DNA from: Carcharhinus longimanus
Taxonomy: Eukaryota
Direction: 5' to 3'
Assembly: GCA_030264375.1 (NCBI GenBank)
Contig: JASCQW010000001.1
Location: 93,219,771-93,283,770, forward strand
Length of the DNA: 64,000 nt
Position numbers: made by a program. This document shows positions 45,001 to 48,000 of the stretch, piece after piece; position 1 is the first letter of the stretch, and each line of letters starts with the position of its first letter.

Positions 45001-48000
45001 GCTAGAGCCAATACTGGCACAGTTATTAACACTTGCCAACAGACAGCCAAATGACTTTTTCCCCTTTCCTTTTTTCTAATGTTCATGTGCAACCAACAAC
45101 CCTTCTCCCATGAGTGTACCTTCTTTCTTCCAGCTCAAGAGACGTGGGCCTACTGCCTGAAGCTATTTTCTAAATGTATTCTACAGTTCTTTGTTTCACT
45201 GCCAAAGTGTAGATGAGAAAGACTAAGTCTGTATGTGTGCAGTAGTGGGCTTGCTGTGCCAACTTACAACTCTGCAGTGTACTGAGGGATATGATCAGGA
45301 ATTTTCGTAAGCCTTTGATTGGAGCAGTCCACAGTGGTTCCCTCGCATCGACATTTTTCAGGGCAAGCAAGGTCCAGGAAGCAGTCTCCACTGAGTTTGG
45401 ATCTGTAATCCTCTGTGCCTGCAGATTATTTGAGTCAAAATATGCAGATTACTCAAGTCGGCAAACAGAAAAACAGGTATTTTAACAGGAAAAGTAATAC
45501 TATGTAAAGAGAGTCAATTAACACGCAAGAAAAATAGGTCGATTTTTAAGACCATACAGAAAGCAAAATTTCAAGAAATTATAATACTGTACCTAGATCT
45601 TGAACTAGATCACAGTAAAGATAAGTCCCAAAAGAGTACAGGTAACATTTACAAGCTGACCTTTTAATGCAGGCTCCTTCTGTTGCAATTTCTACTACAA
45701 AGCTAACTGCCTTCTCACACTCCTGTAGCTAGCTCATAATGTTGCTAAGCTTTATCTAATTCAATTTAGTGCTCCCACCTGAGCCATTTGTTTGAAATAG
45801 TGAGTGGAATTCAAAAAGACTGAATACTTCCAGGCCAATTGGAACACATCTGGTACAGTCATTACATTTGTTCTTTCACTTGCTTTTTCCTACATCAATC
45901 TTTGCTTGTCTTTTTATCCACTTTTCTTTATGAGAAAATTCAATCAGCCATGGCCTCAATACAAATGTCATAAGATTGGTTTCTAGCTCTGAAAGCCTCT
46001 GTCTGCAGAACTACCATCCTGAGCTTTGTTGGTCTTCAATCAGAGAATAAGGATATACTGCCTCTGTCTAAGATAGTTCTATTGTCTCTCACTTGGCATG
46101 CTGTAGAAGGCATACGTGACGCTCCATGGTGCTTGACAGAACCATGTTTTATTCGTACCTTGCAACCACATGGTTAGATCAAGCACAACGGAAAATCCCG
46201 CTCAGTTTCAGAACCGCATCAGCTAGGCCAGGTAAAGGTGTGAGGGAAGATAGTAGAAGAAAGAAGGCAAAGCATTCTACTGGAAGAGGTAGAGAATGTA
46301 GTAGTGGGGAGCTGGGATACAACAGCATTAGTATAAACAAGGGTAACATTGTTTTCACAAACAGTTAATGTACAACAGAACGACTACTGTGAATGATATG
46401 CTGAACACAAGCAATACACATGCCTACATGAAAGAATAGCTCTTTCTCAATCGGATATTGCTCAAATTCAGTATCTGACGTCACTAGCCAACTAGGCATT
46501 ACTGAAAACCTGATATGTTGGGGCACACGAAGGTATGGAGAAGGGTGGGGAGGAGAAATTTGGGATCGAATGTTGGATGGCTTCTTACAGGCTGCCAACA
46601 GGTTGAGTGTGAGGCATTAAATGTATCAGGATAAAGGAAAATAATAGTCGTGGGGGTGTGGTTTGGGAGGGGTGGGAGAGAAGGGTAGAGTGTGTTGGAC
46701 CAGATCTGAAAGAGGGGCAAGTGAACGTGGGCAGAGGTTAAGTATCAGGTAGCACACAAATTTGTACTTACAGCCAAAATGGTGAATTCCTGCAAAAAGT
46801 AAAGAAGCACAGAAGGAAAAGAGAGACAGAGCGATTGCATTTATATTCAGGAAAGCAAAGAAAGCAGCCAATCCACTTGTGCTAAGACGGCAGAGCATTA
46901 GCTTTTAATTAGGTTAAATAAACTAAGTTGTTTATGGGATAATCTCGACTATCAGATTGTACCCAAATAGCGCACAATGCTTTGGAGATTCAGCAGACAA
47001 CAAACCTAACTCCCCAGGAAGAATTACACATTGTCATTGTACTAAACCCCCTTTTAATTATTCAATCAATATGCTGAACACATTGAACTATAGGCTTGAT
47101 TTTGTCTTCTTGATAGGATTGGTTCTCCAACCTACTGGTTGGAAACCCAATGGGAAACCTGTGGGGAGGGTGGGGCATGTCCAAATTTAAGTGTCAGTCC
47201 TTCACTGGCAGTTAGGATCTTGGTGATGGATGTCCAGCCACTGAGAACTGCCAATCAGTTAGAGGCAGGCAGCTTTCCATAGCCCGCCAACACCACTGGG
47301 AGTGGCTGCTGTCAGTAATGTACCCACCAGAGAGGTCTAGGATCACTGAGGGACCCAGACCACAGGTGAGCGAGGCAGGTTGGAGGTCACAGAGGGGAGA
47401 TCCTGGTAAAGAGCGTGTGGGGGGAGGGGCAGGAAAGGTTTGGATTAATGAGCAAGGAGTCAGTGGACACTCCCTTTACCAATGATGCGTTCTTCGATTG
47501 TGGTATAAAGGTTTTGAAAGAGGGACTCCCTGGGGGGCTGCTGGCAATCCAACAGGGGGGTTTGCTGGGCGATCTTCAGGAGGTGAATACTAATAAAGGT
47601 GAACCACTGAGCCACTACAAAGTCTTGGCAGAATGAGAGACAATGGTCTTTAAGTGGCTCGTTAATAGGCTTAACTAGCCAGCGGTCAGGTTCCCAGGAT
47701 CAGCCCCCTCCTCACCACTGAATTAATGGACATCAGTTTTCCTGCTGGCAGGAATGAGATGTGTGGCCTATCCCACAGTTATGAGAGCCATCCACCTATC
47801 CACTCTGCTGGCTCCGTTAAATCTGCCTCAATGATGATGTTCAAAATAAAACTAAGTGTTTAGATAATGAAGGGAACTATAAGGAAATTTGTGAAAAATA
47901 TTTGAATTTACCCAAGGCCTACAGCATGTAATTATTCCATTTAATTTATTGGATACAGATATTTAACAAATACTGTCCATTTAGAATCCATTCCTTACAC

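What the first reader, a model, noticed from the sequence alone, without database searches (positions are those of the whole stretch)
46772..46789. Second, 18-nt microexon in the SLIT2 D2-D3 linker that would add a cysteine
Seen: on the gene strand, a roughly 40-nt pyrimidine tract containing UGC ends in ttttgcag, followed by GAATTCACCATTTTGGCT and gtaagt. The 18 nt are phase 1-1 like the host intron and contain no stop. Inclusion gives ...AKEQYFIP-GIHHFG-C-TEDYRSK, changing exon 16's first Gly to Cys. Known: the canonical human SLIT2 sequence, as I recall it, lacks this peptide; neural microexons regulated by SRRM3/4 typically have UGC near the 3' splice site. Inference: with exon 15 this gives up to four linker isoforms next to the Robo- and heparin-binding D2 domain, and the extra Cys could form a disulfide or covalent dimer. 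It may already appear in predicted isoforms of other vertebrates; I cannot check.
Basis: partly seen in the sequence, partly recalled or inferred. Interest (0 to 1): 0.75.

Follow-up and report, generated by a model that had tools for sequence, protein, structure and literature searches.

The report
Unproven 18-nt microexon candidate in SLIT2
An 18-base stretch inside an intron of a non-human SLIT2 gene looks very much like a tiny neural exon, but nothing available here shows that cells use it, so it is at present a good-looking candidate and more likely an unused look-alike.

Summary
The sequence is as described. On the minus strand an 18-nt block (46789..46772) lies between a 40-nt tract with 35 pyrimidines ending ttttgcag and gtaagt. 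It sits in intron 15 of a non-human SLIT2 orthologue, is phase 1-1 and open, and would give FIP-GIHHFG-C-TEDY.

The layout fits published neural microexons: UCUCUC...UGC, an 84-nt AG-free zone, and GTAAGT. It is the only such site on either strand of the window, where 0.006-0.12 are expected.

Those yardsticks were chosen after seeing the site. With a generic splice-site score:
- 3 (up to 27 nt) to 5 (up to 51 nt) equally good pairs lie on the non-gene strand.
- One more open, frame-preserving 33-nt pair lies on the gene strand.
- Intron 15 holds 6 of the 25 best acceptors.

No transcript or cross-species data could be reached. Papers name only the plus/minus exon 15 isoforms. The insert would leave an odd cysteine.

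I rate an unused pseudoexon at 0.55 and a real cassette microexon at 0.28. The same intron carries mir-218, 573 nt downstream.

The parts
46772..46789 (-). Candidate 18-nt cassette microexon. Phase 1-1 and open. Would insert GIHHFG and turn the first Gly of exon 16 into Cys.
   Evidence: Direct reading.
46790..46831 (-). 3' splice-site region: AG preceded by a tract with 35 of 40 pyrimidines, UCUCUC at -37, and UGC at -20 and -5.
   Evidence: The acceptor weight-matrix score is 13.6, third best of 4235 AGs on the gene strand. The matrix frequencies were recalled, not taken from a tool.
46845..46851 (-). Possible branch site (CUGAA, A at -58) inside an 84-nt zone free of AG. The only full YUNAY match in that zone is at -11, which by my recollection is too close to the AG.
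   Evidence: AG-free gaps of 86 nt or more: 22 of 4241 on the gene strand. The seven real exons checked have 20-49 nt. The branch-site assignment is inferred.
46766..46771 (-). 5' splice site gtaagt. The exonic side is GCT, which is off-consensus.
   Evidence: The donor score is 6.0, like exon 16's GTT|gtaagt at 5.7. There are 149 GTs at or above 6.0 on the gene strand and 30 GTRAGT sites.
51553..51576 (-). SLIT2 exon 15, the known alternative 24-nt microexon encoding AKEQYFIP. Upstream neighbour of the candidate.
   Evidence: In human SLIT2, exon 15 encodes these 8 residues at the end of D2 (PMC12607519, passage). Plus/minus exon 15 isoforms are described in PMC6406468 (passages).
51922..52085 (-). 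SLIT2 exon 14, the C-terminal cap of LRR domain D2.
   Evidence: 53 of 54 identical to 2v9s; LRRCT 24.3 bits, cut-off 20.
45268..45418 (-). SLIT2 exon 16: the rest of the D2-D3 linker and the N-terminal cap of D3.
   Evidence: 31 of 34 identical to 2v70; LRRNT 31.8 bits, cut-off 25.8.
46117..46198 (-). mir-218 precursor in the same intron. It lies 573 nt downstream of the candidate's donor and 698 nt upstream of exon 16.
   Evidence: Rfam RF00255: 92.5 bits (gathering 62), E 3.6e-23, full model. Human mir-218-1 lies in SLIT2 intron 15.

Best explanation
The 18 nt are most likely an intronic pseudo-microexon. A strong 3' splice site and a gtaagt happen to lie 18 nt apart in a pyrimidine-rich stretch of SLIT2 intron 15. 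The spliceosome normally skips them, because an 18-nt exon is too short for ordinary exon definition without dedicated enhancers. Under this reading the intron is removed as one piece, mir-218 is cropped from it, and the only linker isoforms are those with and without exon 15.

Shown: the sequence anatomy, the gene and the intron. Inferred: that the site is not used.
For: 1. Generic splice-site strength does not single it out.
- With a weight-matrix sum at least as high as the candidate's, the non-gene strand has 3 pairs of 3-27 nt and 5 of 3-51 nt.
- The gene strand has a further 33-nt pair (1629..1597) with better scores, 12.4 and 10.4. That pair is also a multiple of 3 and open in its intron's phase 0.

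2. Strong acceptors are mostly not exons here. I could tie only 4 of the 25 best-scoring AGs to SLIT2 exons I had located; I did not map the D4 LRR exons, so this is a lower bound. 6 of the 25, the candidate included, lie in intron 15, which is 9.6% of the window. That part of the intron is pyrimidine-rich on the gene strand (skews at 46-50 kb).

3. UGC near the AG is common: 1964 of 4224 AGs have one.

4. Frame and openness are cheap. One length in three qualifies, and only five whole codons must avoid stops.

5. The peptide is odd for a secreted linker. It has Ile and Phe, and it adds an eleventh cysteine to a 10-cysteine unit.

6. Papers that amplified across exons 14-16 in human lung and in mouse lung and brain name two isoforms only (PMC6406468, passages). 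The two other alternative SLIT2 exons I found described lie elsewhere: 9 residues in EGF5 (PMC4387716) and exon 28b (PMC12221596).

7. The peptide GIHHFG occurs in 0 papers of the library.
Against: 1. The full layout is rare. At least 70-85% pyrimidines over 40 nt with UGC, YAG, then GTRAGT within 3-27 nt occurs once on both strands of the window, and that one is the candidate.
- 0 hits in 200 third-order Markov sequences of 63 kb at 80% pyrimidines or more.
- The semi-empirical expectation is 0.006-0.12 per window.

2. For lengths of 3-27 nt the generic scan of the gene strand returns only exon 15 and the candidate.

3. The layout is the one published for neural microexons (passages):
- an extended pyrimidine tract;
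- a bipartite UCUCUC...UGC element;
- a long branch-point-to-AG distance;
- a strong 5' splice site.
The 84-nt AG-free zone is among the 22 longest of 4241.

4. It lies in a domain linker next to a known alternative microexon of the same phase, where an insert is structurally tolerable.

5. The mammalian RT-PCR evidence comes from other species and says nothing about this lineage.
Confidence: 0.55

Rival explanations
1. A genuine alternative cassette microexon of the neural, SRRM3/4-responsive kind. SRRM3/4 bound at the UGC motifs, together with U2AF on the long pyrimidine tract, would recruit early spliceosome components to the 3' splice site. The gtaagt would bind U1. The 18 nt would then be included in neurons. 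With exon 15 this gives four in-frame D2-D3 linker forms, two of them carrying GIHHFG and an extra cysteine.
For: - It is the only site on either strand with the full layout, against an expectation of 0.006-0.12.
- It is one of only two pairs of 3-27 nt on the gene strand at its score, the other being the known microexon exon 15.
- It has UCUCUC at -37, UGC at -20 and -5, 35 of 40 pyrimidines, an 84-nt AG-free zone and a CUGAA at -58. Published figures for comparison: UGC between branch point and AG in 57 of 73 and 51 of 71 SRRM3/4-dependent microexons, and predicted branch points at a median of 45-47 nt.
- The tract is predicted to be unpaired, although the fold is not significant (z -0.69).
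- It is phase 1-1, open, and located in a linker.
- SLIT2 already has one strongly nSR100-dependent microexon elsewhere in the gene.
Against: - There is no transcript and no conservation evidence of any kind.
- The thresholds were set after seeing the site.
- The donor's exonic side (GCT) is off-consensus.
- No YUNAY branch site lies at a usable distance.
- The insert gives an odd cysteine count and hydrophobic residues.
- Two-isoform RT-PCR reports in mammals, and my own recollection (no call) that no mammalian SLIT2 isoform has an insert at this junction, suggest it would have to be lineage-specific. Lineage-specific microexons are the rarer kind.
- An equally strong, open, frame-preserving 33-nt pair elsewhere in the gene shows that such look-alikes occur.
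Confidence: 0.28
2. The splice-site pair acts on RNA processing rather than on the protein. As a U1 and U2AF landing site 573 nt upstream of the mir-218 hairpin, it would do one of two things:
- define a short 1.35-kb intron around the hairpin; or
- act as a decoy that changes the timing of intron 15 removal.
Either would influence Drosha cropping of mir-218. Any inclusion in mRNA would be a by-product.
For: - mir-218 lies in the same intron, on the same strand, 573 nt downstream of the candidate's donor.
- Use of the site would split the 6134-nt intron into 4762 and 1353 nt, with the hairpin in the short part (coordinates).
- For another intronic miRNA, mutation of the 5' splice site reduced Drosha recruitment and miRNA output, and U1 knockdown lowered intronic miRNAs globally (PMC3197686, abstract only).
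Against: - This is purely positional. No feature of the site points to the hairpin.
- The natural 5' splice site of the intron (exon 15, score 10.5) already provides U1 binding.
- No such element is described for mir-218-1 in the two texts I read in passages.
- The motor-neuron paper on miR-218 transcription was not held.
Confidence: 0.07

Closest known systems
SLIT2 exon 15 (24-nt alternative exon, AKEQYFIP)
   Same: Same gene, same linker and same phase 1-1. It is the neighbouring exon 4.8 kb upstream. It also follows a long pyrimidine tract, and it is the only other pair of 3-27 nt on the gene strand at the candidate's score.
   Different: Exon 15 is documented in transcripts of human and mouse, and its peptide is identical here. 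The candidate has no transcript support. Its sequence is unrelated to exon 15: 43 of 91 aligned columns are identical, mostly T and C of the tracts. It adds a cysteine.
nSR100/SRRM4-dependent Slit2 microexon in EGF5 (exon 28b in the NOVA2 table)
   Same: A tiny, frame-preserving, neural-regulated exon of the same gene. It shows that SLIT2 belongs to the neural microexon programme (PMC4387716, passage; PMC12221596, table passage).
   Different: It adds nine residues to the fifth EGF domain, far downstream of this window. The window holds only the first EGF exon. Equating the EGF5 microexon with exon 28b is my inference.
SRRM3/4-type neural microexons in general
   Same: Length under 27 nt, extended pyrimidine tract, UCUCUC...UGC upstream element, long distance from the likely branch site to the AG, and an intronic 5' splice site complementary to U1.
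   Different: The class is defined by measured neural inclusion, dependence on SRRM3/4, and usually deep conservation of exon and flanks. None of these could be tested.
Intronic pseudoexons
   Same: A good AG and GT pair inside an intron with no evidence of use, like the 33-nt pair at 1629..1597 and the 3-5 pairs on the non-gene strand.
   Different: Its specific layout is rarer than that of the other look-alikes in this window. That pseudoexons greatly outnumber real exons in vertebrate introns is recalled, not taken from a call.
Two adjacent microexons giving four isoforms (agrin z site; recalled, no call)
   Different: Cited from memory only, and it concerns another gene.

Membership tests
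Cassette microexon of the SRRM3/4-dependent neural programme | Length 3-27 nt, bounded by AG and GT, frame-preserving and open in the host phase | tested here: met
   18 nt, cag| and |gtaagt, phase 1-1, no stop.
Cassette microexon of the SRRM3/4-dependent neural programme | Upstream intronic enhancer layout: extended pyrimidine tract with UGC between branch point and AG | tested here: met
   35 of 40 pyrimidines, UCUCUC at -37, UGC at -20 and -5, 84-nt AG-free zone. The layout is as described. UGC alone is weak evidence: 1964 of 4224 AGs have one.
Cassette microexon of the SRRM3/4-dependent neural programme | Strong branch point signal placed far from the AG | tested here: inconclusive
   Inside the AG-free zone the only YUNAY is at -11. 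CUGAA at -58 and AUAAA at -52 fit only U-N-A. No branch-point predictor was available.
Cassette microexon of the SRRM3/4-dependent neural programme | Inclusion in mRNA (junction reads), enriched in neural tissue | not testable with these tools
Cassette microexon of the SRRM3/4-dependent neural programme | Loss of inclusion without SRRM3/4 or after mutating the UGC motifs | not testable with these tools
   This needs an experiment.
Cassette microexon of the SRRM3/4-dependent neural programme | Conservation of the exon and its flanking intron in related species | not testable with these tools
   The only open genome collection holds bacteria and archaea. No protein from joined exons was made or searched.
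SLIT2 orthologue, intron 15 (host intron of mir-218-1) | Flanking exons encode the D2 C-terminal cap, AKEQYFIP, and the D3 N-terminal cap | tested here: met
   53 of 54 and 31 of 34 identical to human SLIT2 D2 and D3 chains. LRRCT and LRRNT are above their cut-offs. Exon 15 peptide as. Each exon was searched on its own.
SLIT2 orthologue, intron 15 (host intron of mir-218-1) | mir-218 hairpin in the intron, on the gene strand | tested here: met
   RF00255, 92.5 bits against gathering 62. Intron 15 in human.
Intronic pseudoexon | Splice-site-like pair that is not used | not testable with these tools
   Non-use cannot be shown from sequence. Only the rate of comparable look-alikes could be measured.

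The most novel reading that the evidence does not exclude
The 18 nt are a real, lineage-specific, neuron-regulated microexon whose use has two effects at once. It places an unpaired cysteine and two histidines in the linker next to the Robo-binding D2 domain of SLIT2. It also splits the mir-218 host intron, so that the hairpin sits in a short 1.35-kb intron with its own gtaagt. Choice of the SLIT2 linker isoform would then be coupled to output of miR-218. By my recollection miR-218 targets the Slit receptor Robo1; the abstract of one paper in the listing says the same.
Probability: 0.06. Interest if true: 0.7.

Novelty: not a real feature. Interest (0 to 1): 0.3.

Why it matters
If the exon were real, SLIT2 would have a second switchable insert beside the domain that engages Robo receptors. 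That insert would carry a free cysteine, which could change oligomeric state or matrix attachment. It would also sit in the intron that produces miR-218, tying a guidance cue's isoform choice to a neuronal microRNA.

As things stand, the value of the work is a calibrated warning:
- The site is the best microexon look-alike in 64 kb.
- Generic splice-site strength alone produces several equally good pairs on the non-gene strand.
- A second open, frame-preserving pair occurs in the same gene.

One RNA-seq look-up or one alignment with a related species would settle it.

Tried and rejected
1. Repeat or transposon origin. A self-BLAST of 46472..47089 against the window gave only itself, plus matches of 12-25 nt at E of 0.39 or more. 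There is no tandem repeat at the site (5 arrays in 45000..52200, none near it).

2. Duplication of exon 15. Aligning the two regions gave 43 identical columns of 91, mostly T and C of the tracts. Rejected.

3. Local RNA structure. The 169-nt fold has z -0.69, and 43 of 200 shuffles fold as well. Uninformative.

4. Downstream NOVA or RBFOX enhancers. There are 5 YCAY in 150 nt, and 72 of 412 windows have as many. There is no GCAUG. Rejected as evidence.

5. Whether the 33-nt pair at 1629..1597 is the known EGF5 microexon. It is not. Only the first EGF exon lies in the window, and the pair sits in the phase-0 intron after it.

6. A longer exon from the same acceptor. The only other GTR within 27 nt is at +22, with no consensus.

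7. Literature.
- SLIT2 plus microexon: 15 papers. I read passages of 2 and saw the rest as listing only.
- SLIT2, exon 15 and alternative splicing: 10 papers. I read passages of 2.
- AKEQYFIP: 1 paper.
- GIHHFG: 0 papers.
- The title phrase of the Slit gene-structure paper: 2 citing papers, listing only.
- A structure search on linker disulfides: 3 papers, listing only, not followed.
- The motor-neuron miR-218 paper was not held.

- any search of vertebrate genomes, transcripts or proteins for the insert;
- supplementary tables of the microexon papers, which may list SLIT2 events;
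Full report
**What is there**

Reading the minus strand, the 18 nt at 46789..46772 are preceded by a tract ending ctttactttttgcag and followed by gtaagt. Positions -42 to -3 hold 35 pyrimidines of 40, with UCUCUC at -37 and UGC at -20 and -5.

- Exon 14 is 52085..51922 and ends ..TCA G|gt.
- Exon 15 is 51576..51553, 24 nt encoding AKEQYFIP.
- Exon 16 is 45418..45268 and begins GC ACA GAG.

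All three junctions are phase 1. The 18 nt are therefore phase 1-1, their five whole codons read I H H F G, and the last T joins GC of exon 16 to give Cys where G + GC gave Gly. The same peptide is visible in an open frame. No N run lies in this intron.

**Which gene, which intron**

I searched each exon on its own.
- The exon 14 translation is 53 of 54 identical to the human SLIT2 D2 chain 2v9s (E 6.9e-34).
- Residues 16-49 of the exon 16 translation are 31 of 34 identical to the D3 chain 2v70 (E 2.1e-17).
- Pfam gives LRRCT and LRRNT above their cut-offs.
- The exon 15 peptide is the one a paper gives for human exon 15 (PMC12607519, passage).

The amino-acid differences show the contig is not human.

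An Rfam scan of 44000..53000 found one family. That is mir-218 at 46117..46198 on the gene strand, with 92.5 bits against a gathering score of 62 and E 3.6e-23 (sequence). Two texts place human mir-218-1 in intron 15 of SLIT2 (bioRxiv 10.1101/2020.09.29.319202, passages; PMC9326663, passages). The intron is therefore the orthologue of the human one. The candidate lies 573 nt upstream of the hairpin.

**Is it more than chance?**

I scored all AG and GT sites with simple weight matrices. Their frequencies I recalled (Shapiro-Senapathy type), so the scores are rough.
- The candidate acceptor scores 13.6, third of 4235 AGs on the gene strand.
- Its donor GCT|gtaagt scores 6.0, much like exon 16's own 5.7. 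149 GTs reach 6.0.
- Real exons in the window score 3.3-12.2 (acceptors) and 1.7-10.5 (donors).

Pairs of 3-27 nt whose summed score reaches the candidate's 19.6:
- Gene strand: 2, namely exon 15 and the candidate.
- Other strand: 3, none a multiple of 3.
- First-order Markov sequence: 0.49 per 63 kb.

Pairs up to 51 nt:
- Gene strand: 4. These are the two above, a piece of the real exon at 29756, and a 33-nt pair at 1629..1597.
- Other strand: 5.

The 33-nt pair has better scores (12.4 and 10.4). It lies in the phase-0 intron after the first EGF exon, and it is open and frame-preserving there.

Strong acceptors are mostly not exons here. I could tie only 4 of the best 25 to exons I had located. 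I did not map the D4 LRR exons, so that is a lower bound. 6 of the 25 lie in intron 15, which is 9.6% of the window. That part of the intron is pyrimidine-rich on the gene strand.

**The specific layout is rarer**

I required at least 70-85% pyrimidines in -42..-3 with a UGC, a YAG, and GTRAGT within 3-27 nt.
- The candidate is the only hit on both strands.
- 200 third-order Markov sequences gave none at 80% or more.
- Multiplying the observed number of such acceptors (2 to 38) by the observed density of GTRAGT (30 sites) gives 0.024-0.45 pairs. After the frame and stop conditions, that is 0.006-0.12 per window.
- The AG-free zone upstream is 84 nt. Gaps of 86 nt or more number 22 of 4241, and the seven real exons I checked have 20-49 nt.

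These features are the ones papers report for neural microexons:
- an extended pyrimidine tract, densest 15-30 nt from the site, with predicted branch points at a median of 45-47 nt (PMC12871342, preprint, passages);
- a bipartite UCU_CUC[N1-50]_UGC element, a long branch-point-to-AG distance and a strong 5' splice site;
- UGC present in 57 of 73 and 51 of 71 SRRM3/4-dependent microexons (bioRxiv 10.1101/2024.09.17.613571, passages).

Against over-reading this:
- The thresholds were set at the candidate's own values.
- UGC in the last 40 nt is found before 1964 of 4224 AGs.
- The only full YUNAY inside the AG-free zone is at -11, which I recall to be too close. The sites at -58 and -52 fit only U-N-A.

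**Other checks**

- The site is not part of a repeat.
- It is not a copy of exon 15 (43 of 91 columns identical, mostly tract).
- It has no significant fold (z -0.69).
- It has no significant YCAY cluster downstream, and no GCAUG.

**The protein side**

I located the D3 exons:
- 45418..45268 and 42395..42321;
- the two 144-nt LRR exons starting at 37103 and 32808;
- the cap exon starting at 29756.

They hold 5, 0, 0, 1 and 4 cysteines, 10 in all. The insert would make 11. An odd cysteine plus Ile and Phe in a secreted linker counts, in my judgement, mildly against a selected coding exon. Which cysteines pair is inferred, not shown. That D2 binds Robo and heparin is recalled, not tested.

**What is in print**

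- The plus/minus exon 15 isoforms are described in human lung and in mouse lung and brain, and only these two are named (PMC6406468, passages).
- A NOVA2 table lists Slit2 exon 28b (PMC12221596, passage).
- GIHHFG occurs in no paper of the library.
- I recall no mammalian isoform with an insert at this junction, but that is memory, not a test.
- Supplementary tables of the microexon papers, which might list further SLIT2 events, were closed.

**Verdict**

The pattern is real, and it is the best microexon look-alike in the window. Whether it is spliced is open.

I weighed four things:
- the rate of look-alikes, roughly 0.01 to 0.8 per window depending on the yardstick;
- the low prior for an additional, apparently lineage-specific microexon;
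- the supportive location and layout;
- the awkward peptide.

My estimates are:
- 0.55 for an unused or trace-used pseudoexon;
- 0.28 for a genuine alternative coding microexon;
- 0.07 for a role in processing the mir-218 host intron. This rests on position only and on the finding that 5' splice-site recognition promotes cropping of another intronic miRNA (PMC3197686, abstract).

If real, it would be a new member of a known kind, not a new kind. One junction count in neural RNA-seq, or one alignment with a related genome, would decide.

Noticed in passing
window 46117..46198 (-): A full-length mir-218 precursor (Rfam RF00255, 92.5 bits, E 3.6e-23) lies in SLIT2 intron 15. It is 573 nt downstream of the candidate's donor and 698 nt upstream of exon 16. 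This matches the human placement of mir-218-1 in intron 15.
   Followed up: partly
window 1597..1629 (-): A 33-nt AG...GT pair with better splice-site scores than the candidate (acceptor 12.4, donor 10.4). It is open and frame-preserving in the phase-0 intron after the first EGF exon, and would insert 11 mostly hydrophobic residues. It is either another pseudoexon or another unrecorded small exon. N runs lie about 150 nt upstream and were left alone.
   Followed up: partly
window 51419..51422 (-): The best-scoring acceptor on the gene strand (15.3) is a tandem cag/tag pair only about 130 nt downstream of exon 15, with no matching donor found. It shows how acceptor-rich this intron is.
   Followed up: no
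window 51592..51608 (+ coordinates; (CT)n on the gene strand): A pure CT dinucleotide run of 8.5 copies sits just upstream of exon 15's acceptor. By my recollection this is the kind of tract that binds PTB proteins, which may bear on the regulated skipping of exon 15.
   Followed up: no
window 46001..50000: About 4 kb of intron 15 has marked strand asymmetry: GC skew +0.12 to +0.15 and AT skew +0.10 to +0.11 on the plus strand. It is therefore pyrimidine-rich on the gene strand, which raises the local rate of acceptor-like sites.
   Followed up: partly
window 44037..44537 (+) and 21739..22171 (-): Long open frames with internally repeated peptide units point to tandemly repeated DNA in two other SLIT2 introns. 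I did not examine them.
   Followed up: no
window 55054 / 52085 (-): The exon 13-14 junction codon reads CT|G (Leu). By my recollection the human protein has Met there; the chain aligned starts one residue later, so this is not checked. Exon 13's donor TCT|gtatgt scores only 1.7, the weakest real site in the window.
   Followed up: no
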